Counted from the stretch's first letter, positions 48,861 through 61,375 are shown. The stretch: 64,000 nt of DNA from an uncultured Rivularia sp. (GCA_963665115.1 OY762007.1:2464001-2528000), one strand, 5' to 3'. Translations and numbers: made by a program. Notes: generated by a model not told the origin, from the letters alone.

Positions 48861-50864
48861 TTAGTTACTGCTCACTGTTAATTCCGCGACTCTCTGAGCT
48901 AAATGATCTGCCTGAATTGGCTTGGCAAGATGTAGGTTAAAACCAGCTTGTAAAGATTCTTTTTGATTTGTTTCTCCTGCATAAGCGGTTAGTGCGATCG
49001 CAGGTATTTTTGCGCCTTTTTTGGGGGGTAGCGCTCGAATTTGACGCATTAATGTATGTCCGTTTACTTCCGGCATGGCGATATCACTGATCAGCAAATC
49101 TGGTTTATCTTGTAAAAATAATTTAAATGCTTCCGGGGCAGATGTGGCTGTTTCTACTGAAGCTCCGTAGGTTTCAAGGACAAATTTTAAAAATTCTAAG
49201 TTGTCTGGCTCGTCGTCTACTATAAGAATCTTTATACCGTTAAAATCTAAATCTAAATCTGCTTTATCTTTATTATTAGTTTCGCTATAAGTTTCTACAT
49301 GGGATGTTAAAGGTATCTCTACGGTAAATATCGTACCTTTGCCAATACCCGGACTTTCTACTTGAATGTTACCACCGTGAAGTTCTACTAAATGTCTGAC
49401 TATGGCTAACCCTAATCCCAATCCTCCAGTATTTCTAGTACTGGAACTGTTTTCCTGACGAAAGTAATCAAATACATAAGGTAAGAAATGAGAATTGATT
49501 CCTTTCCCCGTATCCGCAATTGTAATTTTGGCTTGAGAATTATTGCAGGTTAATTCTACATTTACTTTTCCTTTTGAAGGAGTAAATTTCACTGCATTGG
49601 AAAGTAAATTCCAAAAAATTTGCTGTAAGCGGTTAGCGTCTCCTTCAACAAATGCAGTTTCTGAAGAAAATTTGGTAATGATTTCAACAGATTTTGCATG
49701 AGCGGCTAAATGCACGGTTTCAATTGCAGCTTTGATGATATTTATCAAGTCAATGCTAACTGGATTTAGCTGTAATTTACCGCGCAATATCCGCGAAACG
49801 TCAAGCAAATCTTTGATCATTTCTGCTTGCAAGGAAGCATTTCGCTCAATTGTTTCTAATGCTCGATCGATTTTTTGAGGTGGAATTCTATTAGAGCGTA
49901 AAAGTTGAGTCCATCCTAAAATTGGGTTAAGTGGGGTTCGCAATTCGTGGGAAAGTACCGCTAAAAATTCATCTTTTACCCGGTTTGCTGCTTCGGCTTT
50001 TGCTAGTAATCTAATTCTCTCTAATTCGGCTTGTCTACGTTCGGTGATATCTCTTAAAGTAACTAAATTAGCAGTTTCCCCCTGCCAGTTTACTTTTACC
50101 ACGCGCATTTGTGCGATTAATTCTCTTCCCGTACCCGTGGAAATATCTACCTCGCTATTATCTTCACCAGCGACGGGAAAGCCAAATAATTCTCCTAAAA
50201 GTTCTTCTTCTTGACGATTAAATAGTTTCAAAGCTGCGGGATTGATAAACTTGACTATTCCTTTTTTATCTACCACCACTATCCCATCTGGATTTTTGGT
50301 AATTAGCATCCGCAACTGCTTTTCGCTCTTTTTGAGCGCAGCTTCTACTTTTTCTCTACGAATACTTTCTGTAAGTCTATGCTGACGTTGCTTTTTTAGT
50401 TCTGTTGCTTGAAAGAATAAACGCTGCTGTAAGTCAGTCAAATAAGTACTACATTCTACTTCGTTTGACTCACAACGTGGCGATCTAATTATATTAAGCG
50501 TTTGTTGTACTACCGATGCAAGTCGTGGTGATTGATTTTTACTTATATAGTCGGTTGCTCCTGCTTTGATACAGGTTACTGCATCGCGTGCGCTATCAAC
50601 ACCATTAATAACTATAAATGGAAGGCTTAATTGCTTTTCTTTTAATAATTCTTGAGCTATCAAAACATCCAACTTTGAATGCTGATAATCTGCTACGATA
50701 ATTTCTACGCTTGAATCTAAATAAGCTAAATAATCTTGTTCATTTTCTACTTGCTTTGCCACCGGATTAAAGTCGGCTTCGCGTAATAATGATAATATTT
50801 TTTCGCTTTCTTGGGCAGAATCACACAGCAATAATAAGTTTATTGGAACTGCCATAAATACCAT
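48861..50864 (-). CDS. Cytoplasmic hybrid histidine kinase (REC-PAS-HisKA-HATPase-REC)
   Basis: N-terminal REC; PAS 'DGIVVVD...FINPAA'; 'LSHELRTPLN'; 'NLLSNAVKFT'; 'GGLGLGL'; C-terminal REC 'ISDIAMP'. Confidence 0.9.
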   Translation of the reverse strand: MVFMAVPINLLLLCDSAQESEKILSLLREADFNPVAKQVENEQDYLAYLDSSVEIIVADYQHSKLDVLIAQELLKEKQLSLPFIVINGVDSARDAVTCIKAGATDYISKNQSPRLASVVQQTLNIIRSPRCESNEVECSTYLTDLQQRLFFQATELKKQRQHRLTESIRREKVEAALKKSEKQLRMLITKNPDGIVVVDKKGIVKFINPAALKLFNRQEEELLGELFGFPVAGEDNSEVDISTGTGRELIAQMRVVKVNWQGETANLVTLRDITERRQAELERIRLLAKAEAANRVKDEFLAVLSHELRTPLNPILGWTQLLRSNRIPPQKIDRALETIERNASLQAEMIKDLLDVSRILRGKLQLNPVSIDLINIIKAAIETVHLAAHAKSVEIITKFSSETAFVEGDANRLQQIFWNLLSNAVKFTPSKGKVNVELTCNNSQAKITIADTGKGINSHFLPYVFDYFRQENSSSTRNTGGLGLGLAIVRHLVELHGGNIQVESPGIGKGTIFTVEIPLTSHVETYSETNNKDKADLDLDFNGIKILIVDDEPDNLEFLKFVLETYGASVETATSAPEAFKLFLQDKPDLLISDIAMPEVNGHTLMRQIRALPPKKGAKIPAIALTAYAGETNQKESLQAGFNLHLAKPIQADHLAQRVAELTVSSN

Positions 50865-51078: not shown

Positions 51079-52597
51079 TTACGATTCTTCTTGAAATAAT
51101 TCGCTCAGACGGTTAACTTCATCTTGATCTACATACATTGGATTACCAGACAAAATTCCCGTAACGTTGCGGAAACTTCTACCAATATGCATCCCTCGAT
51201 CGTCTATTGTAAATTCGCGAATTTGCTTGTCATGCATCGAACCCCGCATTTTGATTACCGCTAACCCTCTTCTAACTTCACCGTAAACTTCAACATATCG
51301 CAGTAAAATAATCGTATCGGTACTTGTAGAAATGTGGGATTCCGTTACCGAATTACCACCTAATAAAGTCGGAGCAGTGGCAGTGTAAAGCCCAGTCATT
51401 CCTTGTCCCTCTAACTGTCGCATTCAAACTGGCAATAAATTCTCGAAACCCATCGAGCGTGGCTACTTTTTCCAAAGCCGTCAAACTGTCTATTACTACA
51501 CGATGGGGTTTAAATTCTCTTATCGCTTCCTGCATTTTTATTAGATGATTTTCTAATCTAGTTGATTCCGGATAGCGAAAAATAATTTTTAATAATCCTT
51601 TTTCCTCGGCTTCTTGGAAGTTTGTTCCCCAGCCCCACGCATTTCTCATCAACTGATGGCGATTTTCTTCAAACGCAAAATAAATGCAGCGGTCGTCATT
51701 TTTGATTCCAGCAGCGATAAACTGAGTACAAAGTAAAGTTTTACCCGTACCAGTAGCACCACTAGCTAAAACAATTGAATCGCGATAAAAACCACCACCG
51801 CACATTTTATCGAGTTGATCGTTACCGCAAGAAATGCGGATAATAGATGAATCCTTATCCTCCGGAGCCATCGCCGAAAGAGGAATAGCCACAAACCCTG
51901 TATCGGTAATAATCGTAAATGGGAACTCCCCTTGTTGATGGGAACTACCGCGATATTTAAGAATTTCTAAAGTCCGACGACGCTTTTCTTCAATCAACAC
52001 GTTTCGTAGAATAATCACGTTGTCTGCGACATACTCTTCTACACCGTGAGTGCTGATTGGGCCGTATTCCTCATTGCGTTCTGATGTTAAAATTGCCGTA
52101 CTGTTAACATCTCGTAAAGCCGAAACAATGATAAATAAATCGTCGCGAATTTGAGCTTTATTAGGTATATAGCTAAAAATTGCTCCCAAAGAATCTATCG
52201 ATACTCTAGTAGCTTTTACTTTATCAATAGCATACTGAATTCGAGCCAGCAAAGGACTTAAATCGTAATCTCCACTAACGTAAGGATTTTTACCAGGCTC
52301 GGGAGAAGCATCAACGAAAATCCACTTACCTTCTTTTTCCCACTTTGCAATATCCCAACCAAAACCGCGCATATTTTTGCGAATATTTGGGGGAGATTCT
52401 TCAAAAGTAACGTAAACTCCCGTTTCTCCTCGTTTTATTCCTTCAATCAAAAACTGACAGGAGAATATTGTCTTACCGCTACCCGCACTACCAACTACCA
52501 AAGTAGTACGTCCAATTGGTAATCCACCTTCAGATATCAAATCGAAACCTGGAATTCCTGTTTCTAACTTTTCTAGATTTTGTCCTACTTGAGGCAT
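51079..52597 (-). CDS. kaiC3: Circadian clock protein KaiC, KaiC3-type; apparent +1 frameshift at 51407-51409
   Basis: Two RecA-like domains: 'GSAGSGKT...FEE' and 'GATGTGKT...FEE'; 'KYRG', 'KMRGSMHDK.IREF', phosphosite region 'HISTSTD'. Confidence 0.88.
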
Positions 52598-52641
52598 TTT
52601 AAAAATATCTTGTAGATAATTATCTAATTCGTCTTTTATAG

Positions 52642-52956
52642 TTACTCGCTAAATATATCATGCTTTTTGCTGTTAATTCCCAACCCCATTAAAACGGTTT
52701 TTACATCAGATAGATCCCCGATAATTCTAACTAATGGTAAAGGTAATTCTTTAATTAAAGTTGGTGTAACAATAATTTTTTCTTTTTCGGCAATATCGGG
52801 TTGCTTTAATACATCAATAATCAAAATTTTATATTTGTTAGGAAAATGTTCTTGACATAATTCCTTAAGGTTAGAAATAGCTCGATCCGACCGAGGCGTA
52901 TCTCCTGTTACATAAAGCTTAAGCACATATTTTTTCTCTAAACTACTTTTACACAT
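52642..52956 (-). CDS. kaiB3: Circadian clock protein KaiB, KaiB3-type by context
   Basis: 'YVLKLYVTG.TPRS..AI.NL', 'IDVLKQP..AE..KII.TPTLIK.LP.P..RIIGDLS'. Confidence 0.88.
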   Translation of the reverse strand: MCKSSLEKKYVLKLYVTGDTPRSDRAISNLKELCQEHFPNKYKILIIDVLKQPDIAEKEKIIVTPTLIKELPLPLVRIIGDLSDVKTVLMGLGINSKKHDIFSE

Positions 52957-52998
52957 TATTAAACGTATTTGTTACTATTTTTTTATAATTAATTTCAT

Positions 52999-53871
52999 TT
53001 AACCAGACTCTAAATTGTTATTGTTAATCTTATCAATACTAATTTTATTCAATCCGATAAAGTATTTTCGGTAATAAGCTGTTAAATAACCCATCAACTC
53101 CAATATTATTAAACGTGCTTCTTTTGCATAACTTTGAGACTTCCGAGGATTACGATCGGTTTTCTCTTTCAGAACGGCGGTATGAATTTCAATTGTATCT
53201 CTGGGTGTAGCCTGCATAAAGCCTAATTGTCTTGCCAAAGCATTAAGTTTTTCGGAGGTATTATGCTTAACTTTGTAAGCTTTCTCTTCTAAAGCTAAAT
53301 CCATAATTTCGCTGTAATTTTGTACTAGTTCTGCAAAAATATCCGGTTTGCTTTCTCGTAAAGATTCCAATCCTGATAGATTAGCGTTTGCAGAAGTGGA
53401 TGCTGCAAAAGCCTCAAGTTGCTCAAACTCTACCTTCTGTTGTTCATTTTGCTGCTGCTTTAAAATATTTACCTGCTGCTGTCGTTCGATTGCCGAACGA
53501 ATAGCATATACTAGTAAATTAGTATCAATTTCAGTTTTGTGTAAATATCCGATTGCACCTAATTCCAAAGCTTTAATAGCAGCGGCTTCATCCAAAATGG
53601 TATAAACAATAATTGGCAATTTAGGCGCAGCCTCTAACATTCCCGCCAAAGTTTTAATTCCGCGACTATCGCTAAGCATTAAGTCTAAGAAAATAACGTC
53701 GATATCGTTAAGTGATAACAGCCCCAATCCATTCTCTAAAGATTGAGCAACAATTACCTCAAAACCTTGTTTAAACGAAGAAGACTTAGCTTTAGATAGC
53801 AATCTGCGGAAATACTCTATCTCCTCGGGTTCATCCTCAATTAAAAGAACTTGGCAACGATGATTCAGCAT
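52999..53871 (-). CDS. kaiA3: Receiver domain fused to a KaiA-C-terminal-like domain (KaiA3-like)
   Basis: REC 'IEDE...FLDLML...T...K'. The C-terminus 'TIEIH...ARLIILELMGYLTAYYR' parallels KaiA 'VEIH...YRLTLIDVIAHLCEMYR'. Directly upstream of kaiB-kaiC. Confidence 0.7.
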   Translation of the reverse strand: MLNHRCQVLLIEDEPEEIEYFRRLLSKAKSSSFKQGFEVIVAQSLENGLGLLSLNDIDVIFLDLMLSDSRGIKTLAGMLEAAPKLPIIVYTILDEAAAIKALELGAIGYLHKTEIDTNLLVYAIRSAIERQQQVNILKQQQNEQQKVEFEQLEAFAASTSANANLSGLESLRESKPDIFAELVQNYSEIMDLALEEKAYKVKHNTSEKLNALARQLGFMQATPRDTIEIHTAVLKEKTDRNPRKSQSYAKEARLIILELMGYLTAYYRKYFIGLNKISIDKINNNNLESG

Positions 53872-54319
53872 AAGCTATTATTAGTTATCAGTAACTTGTT
53901 ACAGTAACTATTTATCAGTTATCAGTGACTAGTGTGCGGCTATGAGATCGTGGCGATTAATAAAAGTTATTGACCATTTGCTTCAATTTAAAAAGTTATA
54001 AATCGGACACATCTAATATCCTTATAAGTCTACAGGATGGCGTAATAACTATAAGAAAATTTCTTATTCTATACTGTCATTCATATATCACCTTCTATCA
54101 ACTTTAGATGTTTATGAAATCTATAAACACATCCAAAGTATGAGTTAGAGGGTGATTTATTGATTGCAATACTTACCTACAACCACCGAAAGGTATATTT
54201 CTTAAATAGAGAGTTAGTAATTAGAAGTTAGGAGTTAAAAGTTAGGAGTTAGGAGTTAGGAGTAAATGACTTTTACCATATTATTGTTGTAGAAATGTAC
54301 GGTTGAACATTTTCTACTA

Positions 54320-54905
54320 ATACTTCACCACATAAGTTATGAGGGTTAAAGGTAGTGCGAGCGTCTCGCTCGTTGTTACCAGGGAGCGAGACGCTCCCAC
54401 TCCTCGAACCCCGCAAAATTATCGTGGTTGGGTACTAGTACTCAACCACATTAATTTTGCGGGGTAATAAAAATGTAGTGGGAGCGTCTCGCTCCCTCGT
54501 GACAATCAGCGAGCTTTCCGGCTCGCACTCCCGGAACCCAGCAGAATTATTGTGGGCAAGTACTAGTAGTCGATTGCATAAATTATGAAGGGTTCGTTTT
54601 TCCCGTAACCTTCGGGAGACGTTATGTATAATGTCTCTACAACCCATCGGAACTAATGAAAAGGACTACTAGTAGTTGATTGCATAAATTCTGATGGGTA
54701 CGTTTTCGACCTAACGTCGGGAGACGTAGCACTGCTACGTCTCTACAACCCATTAAAACAAATGAAAAGGACTACTAGTACTCCACCACATAAGTTTTGC
54801 GGGGTAATCAAAATGTAGTGGGAGCGTCTCGCTCCCTCGTGACAATCAGTGAGCTTTCCGGCTCGCACTCCCGAAACCCCGCAGAATTATCGTGGTTAAC
54901 TACTA
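54320..54905. mobile_element. Cluster of three ~130-bp MITE/REPIN copies plus two copies of a second ~100-bp GTAG-hairpin element
   Basis: GTAGTGGGAGCGTCTCGCTCCC-type cores at ~54352, 54475 and 54815; GGAGACG...GTCTCTACAACCC units at ~54570-54670 and ~54675-54775; junctions are TACTAGTA. Confidence 0.75.
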
Positions 54906-54960
54906 GCAACTCGATACTCATTACTCATTACTCATTACTTATTACTCTTTACTCACTACT

Positions 54961-56167
54961 TCAAGGAACTCTCCCCCTCTCGCAATACGGTAAAGTGACA
55001 ATAAACTTAGCGCCTTCACCAAGTTTGCTTTTAGCCGAAATGTTCCCTCCATGACGTTCGATAATTCTGTCACAAATCGCTAAACCCAAACCCGTACCTT
55101 CGTATTCGTTAGAAACTGTGTAATCGTTGGCAAGGTTCAAATATTTGTTCGAGATATGCTTCATCGAAACCAATCCCGTTATCTTCTATAACTATTTCGC
55201 ATAAGCTACCTAATGCTTGATTTTGACTTCTCGGAGTTTGATAAATTTTGACGACTAATGTAATTTCTGGCTGACGATATTTCAATGAATTACCCAGAAG
55301 ATTTTGAAATAGTTGATAGATTTGACCGGAATCAGCCGAAATAACAGGTAATTTACCTACTTCCCAAACTACATCTGTCAAACCGTCAGCTTGTAAATCT
55401 GACATTACCCCTCGCACAAGTTTATTTAAGTCTACTTTTGTAAAAGGTTGTCCTTTTGTAGTTACAAGGGAAAAACTGAGTAAATCCTTAATCAAGCTTT
55501 GCATTCGATTTCTGACTTGACTGATGCGGTTAAGATAGCCAATGCCTTCTTCACCTAATACCTTTTGGTAATCTTCTTCGAGATATTCCGAAAGAATTTG
55601 AATTTTGTGCAGCGGTGACATTAAATCGTGAGACACGACGCTGGCAAAGTCTTCTAAATCGCGATTGCTACGCTCTAATTCTGTAAGTAAAGTTTTTAAT
55701 CTAGCTTCAGCTTGCTTGCGTGAGGTAATATCTTGGATTTGAGCAATAAAATATAGCGGTTGCTCTTGTTTATCCCTTACCAAAGAAACGCTGAGTAAAA
55801 TCCAAACAACATATCCGCTTGAGTGAAAATAACGTTTTTCCATTTGGTAAGTGCGAATTTCACCCGCAAGCATTCGACGCACGCAACCTAAATCTGCTTC
55901 TAAATCGGCGGGGTGGGTAATTTCTTGAAATGTTTTTTTGAGTAAATCTGTTTCAGAATAGCCAACAATTTCACACAAAGCACGGTTAACCTTTAACCAT
56001 CGCCCATCAGTAGCTACAAGCGCCATACCAATTGCTGCATCGTTGAAAGCTAAACGAAATAACTCTTCGCTATTGGGCAATTGTTCCTCAACTTGCTTTA
56101 ACTGGACGATTTCATTACTATTTGTAGAAACAGGTTTTATTTCTCTACCGTTAATATATTCCGACAC
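54961..56167 (-). CDS. PAS/PAC sensor histidine kinase; apparent +1 frameshift at 55113-55115
   Basis: PAS '[16 protein letters not shown]...ITHPAD'; '[18 protein letters not shown]'; 'NLLGNSLKY'; 'DNGIG'. The corrected tail reads '[16 protein letters not shown]'. Confidence 0.88.
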
Positions 56168-56717: not shown

Positions 56718-58400
56718 ATGGGACAAGGTTTGTTGCAGATAGGGTTAACCCTTGCTGTGGTGTTAATTATTACGCCAATAATTGGAAAATATATAGCCAA
56801 CGTATTTATGGGTGAATCTTCATTACTCGATCGAGTCATGAACCCATTAGAAAAAGTTATTTATAAGCTAGCAGACGTAAATCCTCAAGAAAATATGACG
56901 GGTAGGCAATATGCTTATTCTTTGCTACAAAGCAACTTATTTATGGGAATTTTAGTATTTTTACTAATTATTTTTCAAAAAGTTTTACCGTGGAACCCGA
57001 ATGGTTTTGGTGCGCCAAGGTGGGATTTAACACTGCATACGACAATTTCATTTTTAACAAATACGGGACAGCAGCATTACTTAGGAGAAAAAACCCTGAG
57101 CCACTTTAGCAGTATGGCGGGTTTAACCTTTTTGATGTTTGTCTCAGCTGGAACAGGTTTAGCAGTAGGTATTACTTTTCTTCGGGCTTTGACAGGCAAA
57201 CCTTTGGGAAATTATCACGCCGATTTAATTCGGGGGATAACCCGTATATTGCTGCCTATTTCTATTATTGGAGCCATCGTATTATTAGCTCAAGGAGTTC
57301 CGCAAACTCTTTTAGGATCTATAGCAGTAGAAACCTTGGAAGGCAGAACTCAGTATATTGCTAGAGGACCAGTAGCATCTTTTGAAATAATTAAACTGTT
57401 GGGTACAAATGGCGGCGGTTTTTTTGGTGCGAATTCGGCCCATCCCTTTGAAAATCCTAATAGTTTTACCAATTTAATCGAAATTATCGCGATGATGTCT
57501 ATTCCAACCGCGATGATTTTCGTTTACGGTATATTTTCTAACAATATTAAACAAGCTTGGCGGCTGTTTTGGCTGGTATCTATAATCTTTCTAGTTTTAC
57601 TTTGGATAACAGCAACTGGAGAATTTCAAGGTAATCCCCTAGTAAATTCCGACTTAGGACTCGAACAACCTAACTTAGAAGGAAAAGAAGTAAGATTTGG
57701 TTGGGCACAAACAGCGCTATGGGCAGTCATAACTACCGCAACTATGAACGGCGCAGTTAACGGAATGCACGATTCTTTAATGCCTACAGGAGGTTTTTCG
57801 ACCTTACTCAGTATGTTTTTACACGTAATTTGGGGTGGAATAGGAACCGGAATTGTTTATTTATTGATTTATCAATATTTAACCGCATTCTGGGCCGGAT
57901 TAATGATCGGTAGTACTCCAGAATTTTTTGGACGTAAAATTACAAAACGTTCAATAGTGTTAGCGAGCTTGGTAGTGCTAATTCATCCCATAGCGGTGTT
58001 GATACCCAGCGCGATCGCCTTAGCTTATCCCATATCTTTATCCGGAATCAGCAACCCCGGTTTTCACGGTATATCCCAAGTAGTTTACGAGTACATTTCA
58101 GCCAGCGCCAATAACGGCTCCGGCTTTGAAGGTTTGACAGACAATACCTTGTGGTGGAACTTAAGTACTGCTGCGAGTATGCTGCTAGGACGCTACGTTA
58201 GTATATGCGCCATCCTACTTTTAGCTGACACTATGGCACGTACAAAACCAGTACCGGCAATTCCTGCTACCCTAAAAACCGACACACTTTTATTTACCAG
58301 TTTGACAGCAATCCTAATTTTTACTTTAAGCTTTCTAATTTTCTTCCCCATTTTAATTAATGGCCCCTTAGCCGAAGCATTTAAGCTCGCAGCACGGTAA
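56718..58400 (+). CDS. kdpA: Potassium-transporting ATPase subunit A (divergent)
   Basis: 'SFLTNT.QQHY', '[20 protein letters not shown]', '[10 protein letters not shown]', 'GAVNGMHDS', 'ANNGSGF'. Confidence 0.92.
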
Positions 58401-58530
58401 ACAGTGAGCAGTTAGGAGTTAGGAGTAAGTAGCAAGTAGCAAGTAGTAAGTAGCAAGTAGTAAGGAATTAGGAGTTTTAAATTTCTCCTTGTCTCCCCCT
58501 CTCACCCTCTCCCCCTCTCCCCCTCTCCCC

Positions 58531-60639
58531 ATGCCTATGAACCCAGTAGCGACTACTTCTAAATCCAAGCTTGCCAATAGCGCTCCTAAAGAACCTCGTT
58601 CTTCGCGTAAAAAAGTAAAGGCAAGTAAAAAAGGTCTTTATCGTAGAGCGATAAGAGATGCTTTTGCCAAATTTAATCCCAAGCACATTATCAAAAATCC
58701 GGTATTGTTGGTGGTTTGGGTAAGTAGTTTTATTACTTTAGCGGCAACAATTTTCCCGGCTTTATTTGGCTCAAAAGCAATAGCAGATGCACGACTTTTT
58801 AACGGTGCAGTTACTGTAATTTTGTTTTTAACGGTGTGGCTGGCTAACTTTGCCGAAGCCTATGCTCAAAGTCGTGGAAAAGCACAAGCTGATGTATTGC
58901 GCTCGATTAAGTCCGATATAAATGCTAAAAAACTGCTTGCTGACGGTAACATTTCTGAAGTTCCCGCTACCAGTTTGCAGCGCGGCGATACTGTATATGT
59001 CGTAGCTGGTGATGTTATCCCCACCGATGGGGAAGTCATCATGGGTGCTGCGAGCGTAGATGAAGGAGCAATTACCGGAGAATCGGCACCCGTACTCAAA
59101 GAAGCGGGTTCTGATATAGCTAGTTATGTTACTGGTGGCAGCCGTATTATCTCGGATGAATTGATCGTCAGAATTACCGTCGATCCAGACAAAGGGTTTA
59201 TCAACCGGATGATTTACGTCATAGAGAGGAGAGAACGTAAGAAAACACCCAACGAAGCAACTCTGGCAATTTTATTAGTACTGATTAGCTTGATATTTTT
59301 ATCGGCGATCGCAACTTTTCCAGCACTAGCGTATTACGTTAAAGCTCCGATTAGCGTACCTATTTTAATTGCTGTTTTCGTGGCATTAATTCCTACAACA
59401 GTCGGCAGCTTACTAAGTGCTACCACTATTGGAGGCATGGACCGCGTTGCTCAATTAAACTTAATCGCTACTTCAGCTAGAGCCATAGAAGCCTGTGGAG
59501 ATGTCAGCACCTTAATCTTAGATAAAACAGGAACCGTAACCCGAGGCAACCGTTTAGCAGATGGTTTTATTCCTATTAACGGTCATACAATGCAAGAAAT
59601 TGCTTATGTAGGACTAGCGGCAAGTATCTTTGATGACACCTCAGAAGGAAAATCAATAGTCCGTCTGGCACAAAGATTGGGAGCAAGAATTGATTTCGAC
59701 TATCAAGCAGCCTTTCCTGTAAAATTCAGCGCCAAAAGCCGAATCGGTGGAACTAATTTACCTAATGGTTCGATGGTGCGTAAAGGTGCTGTAGATGCTG
59801 TAAAAAACTTTGTGCAATCGCAAGGTGGAGAATTTTCATCCGAACTCAATTCAGCTTACGAAATGGTATCCCAACAAGGAGGTACACCATTAGCCGTATC
59901 CATGAATAACGAAATTTACGGCATTATTTATTTAAAAGACAATATCAAACCGGGCATACGCGAACGCTTCGGACAGTTACGAAGGCTTGGCGTGCGAACC
60001 ATTATGATTACTGGCGACAATCATATAACTACTTCCGTAATTGCCAGAGAAGCCGGTGTCAAAGAATTTATCGCCGAAGCAACCCCCGAAGACAAAATCG
60101 CTGTAGTTCAACGAGAACAAGCAGAAGGTAAATTAGTAGCAATGACAGGGGATGGCACAAACGATGCAGCAGCATTAGCACAAGCCAATGTTGCCGTAGC
60201 CATGAATAATGGAACTCAAGCAGCAAAAGAAGCAGCCAATATCATCGATTTGGACTCAGATCCCACAAAACTAATCGACATTATCGGTATTGGTAAACAA
60301 GTGCTAATGACTCGTGGTGCTTTAATCACATTTTCAGTTGCAAACAACATAGCCAAATACTTTGCAATTGTTCCAGTAATATTTGCTTCGACATCAAATA
60401 AATTAAACATCATGAACTTGACAAGCACCAATTCCGCCGTGCTGTCAGTATTAATTTATAATGCCTTAATTATTCCAGCATTAATACCCTTAGCTCTCAG
60501 AGGTGTACCATTCACACCAATGACACCCAATCAACTTTTACAACGTAATATTTTGATTTATGGAATAGCCGGATTGATTATCCCATTTATCGCCATTAAA
60601 TTAATCGACCTGATAATTTCTCTGACAGTGCTGGCGTGA
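58531..60639 (+). CDS. kdpB: Potassium-transporting ATPase subunit B (divergent)
   Basis: 'ITGESAPV', 'KTPNE', 'LIPTT', 'DKTGT', 'MITGDN', 'MTGDGTND'. Start placed at ATG 58531 because the upstream TTG lies in repeat DNA. Confidence 0.92.
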   Translation: MPMNPVATTSKSKLANSAPKEPRSSRKKVKASKKGLYRRAIRDAFAKFNPKHIIKNPVLLVVWVSSFITLAATIFPALFGSKAIADARLFNGAVTVILFLTVWLANFAEAYAQSRGKAQADVLRSIKSDINAKKLLADGNISEVPATSLQRGDTVYVVAGDVIPTDGEVIMGAASVDEGAITGESAPVLKEAGSDIASYVTGGSRIISDELIVRITVDPDKGFINRMIYVIERRERKKTPNEATLAILLVLISLIFLSAIATFPALAYYVKAPISVPILIAVFVALIPTTVGSLLSATTIGGMDRVAQLNLIATSARAIEACGDVSTLILDKTGTVTRGNRLADGFIPINGHTMQEIAYVGLAASIFDDTSEGKSIVRLAQRLGARIDFDYQAAFPVKFSAKSRIGGTNLPNGSMVRKGAVDAVKNFVQSQGGEFSSELNSAYEMVSQQGGTPLAVSMNNEIYGIIYLKDNIKPGIRERFGQLRRLGVRTIMITGDNHITTSVIAREAGVKEFIAEATPEDKIAVVQREQAEGKLVAMTGDGTNDAAALAQANVAVAMNNGTQAAKEAANIIDLDSDPTKLIDIIGIGKQVLMTRGALITFSVANNIAKYFAIVPVIFASTSNKLNIMNLTSTNSAVLSVLIYNALIIPALIPLALRGVPFTPMTPNQLLQRNILIYGIAGLIIPFIAIKLIDLIISLTVLA

Positions 60640-60772
60640 GAGTTAACAGTAAAGAGAGAGGGGGATGGGGCGATGGGGAGAAATTTAAAACTCCTAACTA
60701 CTCATTACTCCCTACTCTTAACTCCCTACTTACTACTCCCAACTCCTTTAATCCAAAATCGAAAGTTCTATC

Positions 60773-61375
60773 ATGTTTCAACTTCGAGCAATTGCCACTT
60801 CAATTCGAGTTAGCTTGATATTGTGGTTGCTTACTGCCATTATCTATCCATTATTTATACTTTTAGTAGCTCAACTTCCCTTGTTTCAATATCAAGCTGA
60901 GGGTAGTGTAATTGTCGATCTATATAGTGAACCAATTGGTTCGGCTTTAATTGGTCAAACATTTACATCCGAAGAGTATTTTCATAGCCGACCAAGTAGC
61001 GTGTTATACAGTCAGGGGAAAAAAGCTCAACCTACTGGAATATCTGGCTCAAGCAACTTTGCTCCTAGCAACCCAAAATTACTTGAGCGAATTTCGGAAA
61101 CAGCGAATGTACTTCAAGACGAAAGTATAGATCCCCGTGCAGATTTAATTTATACTTCTGCTTCGGGATTAGACCCCCATATTACATATAAATCGGCCAT
61201 GCAGCAGTTAGATAGAGTTGCTAGCGCTCGCAATATACTACCAAATGAAATTTTCCCCGATATTGTCAAATATACCGAACGTAGATTTTTAAATATATTT
61301 GGTGAACCTGGAGTTAATGTCTTGAAATTAAATTACGCTCTCGATCTTCGAGAAATTAGCCGTAGAAGAAATTAA
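60773..61375 (+). CDS. kdpC: Potassium-transporting ATPase subunit C
   Basis: 'GSALIGQTF...YFHSRPS', 'SASGLDPHI', 'GEPGVNVLKLN'. Confidence 0.92.
   Translation: MFQLRAIATSIRVSLILWLLTAIIYPLFILLVAQLPLFQYQAEGSVIVDLYSEPIGSALIGQTFTSEEYFHSRPSSVLYSQGKKAQPTGISGSSNFAPSNPKLLERISETANVLQDESIDPRADLIYTSASGLDPHITYKSAMQQLDRVASARNILPNEIFPDIVKYTERRFLNIFGEPGVNVLKLNYALDLREISRRRN

What the first reader, a model, noticed from the sequence alone, without database searches (positions are those of the whole stretch)
51079..53871. Contiguous kaiA3-kaiB3-kaiC3-like second oscillator cluster
Seen: a REC protein whose C-terminus matches the KaiA C-terminal helix pattern (EIH...RL.ILELM..L...YR), then kaiB (42 bp gap), then a two-domain kaiC (44 bp gap). 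Known: Synechocystis has a KaiA3-KaiB3-KaiC3 system in which KaiA3 is a receiver/KaiA chimera. Automated annotation would call the first gene only a response regulator. Here all three genes form one apparent operon.
Basis: partly seen in the sequence, partly recalled or inferred. Interest (0 to 1): 0.7.

Follow-up and report, generated by a model that had tools for sequence, protein, structure and literature searches.

The report
Known second cyanobacterial clock operon
This is an ordinary copy of the already described kaiA3-kaiB3-kaiC3 gene set, which likely runs a second daily protein timer in this cyanobacterium; the break in its kaiC gene is most likely a sequencing error, and a neighbouring sensor kinase may be its still unknown input.

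Summary
The three genes and the 42/44-bp gaps are real. The first protein is the orthologue of Synechocystis KaiA3 (Sll0485): 40% identity over 283 aa, by far the best genome hit, KaiA-like C-terminus by profiles. KaiB and KaiC group with KaiB3 and KaiC3 (KaiC 99/99; S423/T424 kept). A separate kaiA1B1C1 exists, so this is the second system.

It is not new. Köbler 2024 says a contiguous kaiA3B3C3 is the rule, and lists a Rivularia KaiA3 83% identical to this one. I found the trio contiguous in 34 of 41 loci. The scan noted this kind before, in an Asgard archaeon.

Three of four runs lack it, and 10 relatives are intact. Such insertions hit 32 of 172 genes compared, at GGAC/GAAC/GGCC/GGTC, so it is very likely an assembly artefact, possibly from Dnd phosphorothioation.

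One lead: two histidine kinases flank the cluster here and in a distant Coleofasciculaceae genome. The upstream one is a candidate for KaiA3's unidentified kinase (about 30%). Oscillation is inferred, not tested.

The parts
52999..53871 (-). kaiA3, 290 aa: receiver domain (E12, D13, D63, T91, Y109, K112 kept), long linker helix, KaiA-like C-terminal helical domain (about 176-276)
52642..52956 (-). kaiB3, 104 aa
   Evidence: PF07689 E 1.8e-24; below both KaiB equivalog cut-offs; tree with KaiB3, 89/88
51079..52597 (-). kaiC3, 505 aa when read through with X at the break; annotated in the window as ORFs 51353-52597 and 51079-51423. Both P-loop lysines, both arginine fingers, E310/E311, T418, S423 and T424 are present
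51407..51409 (-). one extra base in a short G run before AC (GGAC motif lengthened) that shifts the kaiC3 frame; very likely an assembly error
   Evidence: absent in contigs of runs X2, X3, X4, present in X1; motif analysis
54961..56167 (-). upstream PAS-HisKA-HATPase histidine kinase (394 aa in relatives; split here by an extra base at 55113); candidate kinase for KaiA3 D63 (inferred)
48861..50864 (-). downstream hybrid kinase, 667 aa (N-terminal receiver-like part, PAS, HisKA, HATPase, receiver), 214 bp after kaiC3; candidate input or output (inferred)
54212..54936 (.). dispersed multi-copy palindromic and heptamer repeats that widen the kinase-kaiA3 gap to 1089 bp (336-606 bp in 13 related Rivulariaceae-type loci)
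   Evidence: (very high summed depth)

Best explanation
The locus encodes orthologues of Synechocystis KaiA3, KaiB3 and KaiC3, which likely form a second, dampened phosphorylation oscillator coupled to the main KaiA1B1C1 clock. Shown here: the orthology, the gene order, the conserved catalytic and phosphorylation residues, and a separate kaiA1B1C1 locus. Inferred from the Synechocystis work: hexameric KaiC3 autophosphorylates at S423/T424 when a KaiA3 dimer binds its C-terminal tail through the KaiA-like domain; KaiB3 then binds and counteracts KaiA3, so KaiC3 dephosphorylates, giving a cycle of about 24 h. More weakly inferred: KaiA3's intact receiver (D63) takes a phosphate from a histidine kinase and so tunes the cycle. 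The kaiC3 frameshift is very likely an assembly error, so the gene is taken as intact.
For: KaiA3: 40% identity over 283 aa to the L075 protein, which matches the Sll0485 sequence printed in Supplementary Data S1 (compared by eye). That protein's best hit in this genome is this gene, E 1.5e-55; the next of 8 hits is 8.6e-11. P0013 (Rivularia, 288 aa, 83% identical) matches the listed PCC 7116 KaiA3 (by eye). C-terminal domain: the top 3 of 9 PDB hits of a 20-sequence profile are KaiA (E 0.037-0.06); hhalign against 5 KaiA1 gives P 1.2e-4 over 92 columns; the Atlas top three are KaiA clusters at 0.90-0.91, then RsbU_N; Pfam KaiA matches 11 of 20 orthologues. KaiC: 64.7% to G201's 505-aa KaiC, 50.0% to its KaiC1 and 35.3% to its 568-aa KaiC2; KaiC3 clade 99/99. 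S423/T424 have the same numbers as in Synechocystis KaiC3. kaiA1B1C1 lies at G000 8.1415-8.1440 Mb. In vitro and in vivo cycles of the Synechocystis orthologues: PMC11372060 section 9. Frameshift.
Against: Nothing was measured on these proteins. The Synechocystis in vitro cycle is low-amplitude and dampened. The window's own C-terminal domain has no Pfam KaiA hit even at E 10 and no PDB hit as a single sequence; D267, H271 and E274 of KaiA correspond to E258, Y262 and A265. The AU test does not reject joining the Rivularia-type KaiC group with KaiC1 (p 0.061), and the mixture-model quick tree gave the KaiC3 clade only 81. The Rivularia-type KaiC3 and KaiB3 sit on long branches. The system is dispensable in the genus: no kaiA3 found in 10 of 27 genomes, one of them (G016) through a contig break.
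Confidence: 0.72

Rival explanations
1. The three proteins are true KaiA3/B3/C3 orthologues but work here as a signal-driven switch or hourglass: the flanking kinases set KaiA3 activity, and KaiC3 phosphorylation follows the signal instead of running free.
For: Intact receiver residues. Kinases flank the trio in 11 of 14 Rivulariaceae-type loci and in L029. KaiA3-type C-terminal domains are often fused to sensor domains: of 42 long hits scanned, 38 carry PAS, 24 a receiver and 5 GAF. The Synechocystis in vitro cycle is dampened.
Against: In Synechocystis cells KaiC3 phosphorylation cycled for three free-running days. Most distant loci have no kinase as the next gene upstream.
Confidence: 0.2
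2. kaiC3 is a real pseudogene in this strain: the frameshift is genuine and the system is decaying.
For: The extra base is in the assembly and in run X1 at depth about 205, and at the same site in G003 and G007. Decay does occur in the genus: G001 kaiC3 is interrupted, G023 keeps a remnant, G024 kaiA3 holds stops.
Against: X2 and X4 show no substitution against the window in these genes yet lack this base and three other insertions, and lack the kaiC1 one. 32 of 33 frameshifting indels found in G000 are insertions, and 30 of 32 lie in four lengthened 4-mers against a 3.5-5.0% background. Housekeeping genes (priA, a sigma factor, kaiC1) are hit in the same way. G003 and G007 differ from G000 at the other sites.
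Confidence: 0.03
3. The first gene is an ordinary response regulator with an unrelated helical output, beside a divergent duplicate of kaiB1C1.
For: Pfam and NCBIfam see only the receiver. Structure searches did not return KaiA as a clear match. AU p 0.061 for the group with KaiC1.
Against: Full-length best-hit orthology to Sll0485, KaiA-like profiles, 65% versus 50% KaiC identity, AU p 0.00065 against the window KaiC alone with KaiC1, and conserved A3-B3-C3 order.
Confidence: 0.03

Closest known systems
KaiA3-KaiB3-KaiC3 of Synechocystis sp. PCC 6803 (Sll0485 system; Köbler et al. 2024, PMC11372060)
   Same: Receiver plus KaiA-like chimera with the phospho-Asp kept; kaiB3 directly downstream; 505-aa KaiC3 with S423/T424 and no long tail; coexists with kaiA1B1C1.
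   Different: kaiC3 is contiguous here (separate in Synechocystis). Two histidine kinases flank the cluster. The genome's KaiA1 is the short, 117-aa single-domain form, so KaiA3 is the only KaiA-type protein found here with an N-terminal sensing module. No KaiC2-type protein among the three KaiC-like hits.
KaiA3 of Rivularia sp. PCC 7116 (WP_015121463.1, Supplementary Data S1 of PMC11372060)
   Same: 83% identical (P0013); relatives in this genus share the five-gene layout.
   Different: Another species; in this assembly kaiC3 and the upstream kinase carry artefact-type insertions.
Canonical KaiA1B1C1 (Synechococcus elongatus type)
   Same: Same A-B-C order; KaiC catalytic residues and Ser/Thr sites aligned.
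   Different: KaiC about 50% identical; KaiA3 has a true receiver rather than a pseudo-receiver; about 22% identity in the C-terminal profile match.
KaiB2-KaiC2 hourglass timer (Rhodobacter type)
   Same: Double-ring KaiC with a KaiB partner.
   Different: 35% identity to G201's KaiC2, no extended C-terminus, Ser/Thr sites rather than Ser/Ser, and a KaiA-type activator is present.

Membership tests
KaiA3B3C3 system | KaiA3 is the best-hit orthologue of Sll0485 over the full length | tested here: met
   (E 1.5e-55 versus 8.6e-11); only the Sll0485-to-this-genome direction was run genome-wide
KaiA3B3C3 system | N-terminal receiver domain with phosphorylatable Asp | tested here: met
   PF00072; D63 aligns with D65; receiver fold Z up to 19.5, rmsd 2.5 over 154 residues
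KaiA3B3C3 system | C-terminal domain KaiA-like by sequence profile | tested here: met
   each signal is weak alone and the window sequence by itself has no Pfam KaiA hit
KaiA3B3C3 system | C-terminal domain adopts the KaiA four-helix bundle (structure) | tested here: inconclusive
   full model has four helices at 176-276 with pLDDT about 78-95, but searches were filled by the receiver; the domain-only model was poor (pLDDT 58)
KaiA3B3C3 system | kaiA3 directly upstream of kaiB3, usually followed by kaiC3 | tested here: met
   rule stated
KaiA3B3C3 system | KaiC belongs to the KaiC3 clade, with Ser/Thr sites and no extended tail | tested here: met
   (99/99); caveat AU p 0.061 for the group joined to KaiC1
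KaiA3B3C3 system | KaiB belongs to the KaiB3 group | tested here: met
   89/88, outside the KaiB1 clade (99/95); moderate support on 103 columns
KaiA3B3C3 system | Co-occurs with KaiC1 | tested here: met
KaiA3B3C3 system | KaiA3 binds KaiC3 and drives phosphorylation cycling with KaiB3 | not testable with these tools
   needs biochemistry; shown only for the Synechocystis proteins
Canonical KaiA1B1C1 | KaiC in the KaiC1 clade and KaiB above the KaiB equivalog cut-offs | tested here: not met
   (KaiB 101.6 < 110 and 96.2 < 145.3 bits)
KaiB2C2 hourglass | Extended KaiC C-terminus and Ser/Ser sites | tested here: not met
   505 aa versus 568 aa; S423/T424

The most novel reading that the evidence does not exclude
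The upstream PAS histidine kinase (54961-56167) is the cognate kinase of KaiA3's receiver, so the five-gene block kinase-kaiA3-kaiB3-kaiC3-hybrid kinase is a complete input-oscillator-output module. It would supply the KaiA3 kinase that Köbler et al. call not yet identified, and would be the entry point for signals in a lineage whose KaiA1 has no N-terminal sensor domain.
Probability: 0.3. Interest if true: 0.5.

Novelty: new member of a known kind. Interest (0 to 1): 0.15.

Why it matters
The cluster itself adds one more genome to a described system and matters little. Two by-products have some value. First, the conserved flanking kinases give a directly testable candidate for the unidentified KaiA3 kinase (PMC11372060 Discussion). 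Second, this assembly carries about 157 spurious frameshifts per Mb of coding DNA at four short motifs, so split genes anywhere in it, and in G007 and probably G003, should not be read as pseudogenes or programmed frameshifts without read support.

Tried and rejected
Single-sequence searches of the C-terminal domain against PDB and Pfam gave nothing. Fold searches of the full model returned only receiver domains. The domain-only model had pLDDT 58 and gave no meaningful match; a KaiCBA chain appeared at rank 46, E 5.7, which I do not count. Complex prediction of the KaiA3 C-terminal dimer with the KaiC3 tail was not available, so binding is untested here. The promoter scan found 22 sites against 27.5 expected, and no terminator-like site between the three genes: uninformative. 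'Contiguity is new' was rejected. 'First in Rivularia/Nostocales' was rejected. Programmed frameshifting in kaiC3 was rejected because three runs and 10 relatives hold the open frame. The first 29-row careful tree did not finish; its quick tree misplaced the long KaiC2 branch, so I rebuilt with 17 rows, dropping 12 (two KaiC-like outliers and ten redundant rows). Literature searches for phosphorothioate-linked errors in PacBio or HiFi data (listings) and for phosphorothioate + cyanobacteria + GGCC + dndC (0 papers) found no such report; one search found the Nanopore case. The held library omits most subscription papers.

Full report
OBSERVATION. The minus strand holds a 290-aa ORF (52999-53871), a 104-aa ORF (52642-52956) and KaiC sequence from 52597 to 51079, with gaps of 42 and 44 bp. 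Pfam finds a receiver domain, KaiB and the KaiC ATPase. The quoted C-terminal motif is present. The genome is a single 8.69-Mb contig, and the closest named relatives of the first protein are Rivularia and Calothrix records.

FIRST GENE IS KaiA3. A phylum search gave locus L075 of genome G201, whose protein matches by eye the Sll0485 sequence printed in Supplementary Data S1 of Köbler et al.; the kaiB next to it ends in the KaiB3 epitope peptide quoted in bioRxiv 700500. The window protein is 40% identical to it over 283 residues and is its best hit in this genome, E 1.5e-55 against 8.6e-11 for the next of 8. Receiver residues E12, D13, D63, T91, Y109 and K112 are intact. The C-terminal domain is KaiA-like by four methods: a 20-sequence profile ranks three KaiA chains first among 9 hits in 177,635 PDB sequences (E 0.037-0.06); hhalign against five KaiA1 gives P 1.2e-4, probability 55%; the Atlas top three are KaiA clusters at 0.90-0.91, then RsbU_N; Pfam KaiA matches 11 and RsbU_N 7 of 20 orthologues, but not the window sequence itself. 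Structure searches were inconclusive (see Tried and rejected).

KaiB AND KaiC. G201 has three KaiC genes: 519 aa in kaiABC, 568 aa beside a kaiB, and 505 aa alone; the last carries S423/T424, the KaiC3 sites named. The window KaiC, read through with X, is 505 aa and 64.7%, 50.0% and 35.3% identical to KaiC3, KaiC1 and KaiC2. A 17-row tree rooted on KaiC2 places it with KaiC3 at 99/99; a quick mixture-model tree gave 81. The AU test rejects the window KaiC alone with KaiC1 (p 0.00065) but not the four-row Rivularia-type group with KaiC1 (p 0.061). P-loop lysines, arginine fingers, E310/E311, T418, S423 and T424 are kept. KaiB groups with KaiB3 at 89/88. The genome also has kaiA1 (117 aa), kaiB1 and kaiC1, and a third, distant KaiC-like gene. 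Short single-domain KaiA is typical of Nostocales (PMC8113500 passages).

THE FRAMESHIFT. Four runs of one study hold the region. Contigs of X2, X3 and X4 lack the base at 51407 and three more insertions (44216, 47878, 55113); X1 equals the assembly. The kaiC1 break behaves the same. These runs are not independent studies, and their platforms are not on record. Of 14 Rivulariaceae-type loci, 10 have an intact 505-513-aa kaiC3, 2 share this frameshift, 1 is interrupted and 1 is cut by a contig end. I then aligned 224 ORFs from 400 kb of G013 to G000; 172 passed the filter (204 kb). 33 carry an isolated frameshifting indel, 32 of them insertions in G000. 30 of the 32 lie in a lengthened GGAC, GAAC, GGCC or GGTC within 14-15 nt, against 3.5-5.0% background; the other two show such a motif in the wider context. 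Per-site rates are 0.7-10.5%, about 157 per Mb of coding DNA. G007 shows 14 such events in 66 genes, all at these motifs (two are probably one site); G021 shows 0 in 66. This is a systematic assembly artefact. Its cause is inferred: G000 has dndC and dndD in a dnd-like locus, GAAC/GTTC and GGCC are known phosphorothioate motifs, and dnd systems cause errors at GGCC in Nanopore assemblies (passages of PMC9521924 and bioRxiv 2026.03.20.713089). Against it: G021 and G013 also have dndC without showing the errors, and I saw no report of GGAC or GGTC as targets. I put the phosphorothioate cause at about 55%.

SYNTENY. Of 41 loci from the genome collection, 34 have kaiA3-kaiB-kaiC contiguous, 4 have kaiA3-kaiB only, and 3 are uninformative. 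Full-length orthologues were found in 21 of 301 phylum genomes, own included, and in none of the 37 other same-family genomes of that draw. Köbler et al. already state the contiguous order as the rule and list Rivularia sp. PCC 7116, whose protein matches P0013, 83% identical to ours. Their figures are not held, so I could not see whether Fig. 1b draws the Rivularia locus. A search for kaiA + Rivularia + kaiC3 found 0 papers.

FLANKING KINASES. A PAS histidine kinase lies upstream and a hybrid kinase downstream, all on one strand. Both are present in 11 of the 14 Rivulariaceae-type loci (one cut downstream, one short contig, one with the upstream gene reduced to a remnant). In L029 (Coleofasciculaceae) both flank the trio too, 93 bp upstream, and their best hits in G000 are the window's two kinases; L029 is also sister to this group in the KaiC tree (94/99). 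In 27 genomes of the genus, the upstream kinase and kaiA3 are both found in 16, only the kinase in G016 (kaiA3 cut by a contig end), only kaiA3 in G021, neither in 9. G008 and G012 keep kaiB3-kaiC3 and the downstream kinase but lack both kaiA3 and the upstream kinase; G023 is similar with a kaiC remnant. The two genes are neighbours, so one deletion removes both and this is weak evidence; G024 keeps the kinase with a broken kaiA3. Among 25 distant loci only L029 has a kinase as the next gene upstream, while several have one next downstream. The paper says the KaiA3 kinase has not been identified; the listing showed no paper on it. I give the upstream kinase about 30%.

MECHANISM AND VERDICT. 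Shown: orthology, order, intact residues, a second Kai locus. Inferred from Synechocystis: KaiA3 stimulates and KaiB3 reverses KaiC3 phosphorylation, giving a dampened cycle of about 24 h linked to the main clock. A new member of a known kind; interest 0.15.

PAPERS SEEN. PMC11372060: abstract, introduction, Results sections 6, 7 and 9, Discussion part 1 of 2, passages, Supplementary Data S1 (both parts, cells cut), and a text search of the supplementary PDF. bioRxiv 700500, bioRxiv 2026.03.20.713089, PMC9521924 and PMC8113500: passages only; preprint supplements were closed and may list further motifs. Others: search listings only. The labels priA, sigma factor, dndB/dndE, IS630-type and Kdp rest on my reading of translations (recalled), not on a family call. 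Two earlier scan notes on an Asgard archaeon describe the same kind of system; I did not test them.

Noticed in passing
whole assembly G000; in the window 44216, 47878, 51407, 55113: Systematic 1-2 base insertions at GGAC, GAAC, GGCC and GGTC split about 19% of the genes compared (32 of 172). Also seen in G007 (14 events in 66 genes) and at single sites in G003, not in G021. Split genes in this assembly are suspect.
   Followed up: yes
G000:C1:6800838-6816165 (L122, L124): dnd phosphorothioation locus (dndC and dndD confirmed by NCBIfam; dndB/dndE-like neighbours by eye). dndC is itself broken at such a motif in G000, G003 and G007 and whole in G013 and G021. If the modification causes the insertions, they hint at a wider motif set (G-G-H-C plus GAAC) than the passages I read describe.
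   Followed up: partly
one search hits P0050-P0203: The KaiA3-type C-terminal domain hits 1713 clusters at 50% identity (1424 at E 1e-10), far more than the 15 cyanobacterial species and five other genera listed in 2024. Of 42 long hits scanned, 38 carry PAS, 24 a receiver, 5 GAF, 1 MEDS and none a kinase ATPase domain. Their link to kaiBC genes was not checked.
   Followed up: partly
G000:C1:5293425-5296366: A third, distant two-domain KaiC-like gene (27% identity, no Ser/Thr site pair), followed by a small receiver and a receiver-kinase; frameshifted at a GAAC-type motif here, whole in G013 (L118).
   Followed up: partly
L127 (G008), L128 (G012), L129 (G023), L130 (G024), L015/L019 (G001): Natural loss states in the genus: kaiB3C3 without kaiA3 and the upstream kinase; a kaiC3 remnant; a kaiA3 with stops; a kaiC3 interrupted by transposase-like ORFs.
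   Followed up: partly
window 54212-54936: Cluster of dispersed palindromic repeats and AGTTAGG heptamers between the upstream kinase and kaiA3, present at many copies elsewhere in the genome by summed depth.
   Followed up: partly
window 56718-61375: kdpA-kdpB-kdpC-like potassium pump genes, divergent from the upstream kinase (named from the translations by eye).
   Followed up: no
G000:C1:3366772-3367530: A 252-aa protein with a C-terminal KaiB-like domain (39% to the window KaiB).
   Followed up: no
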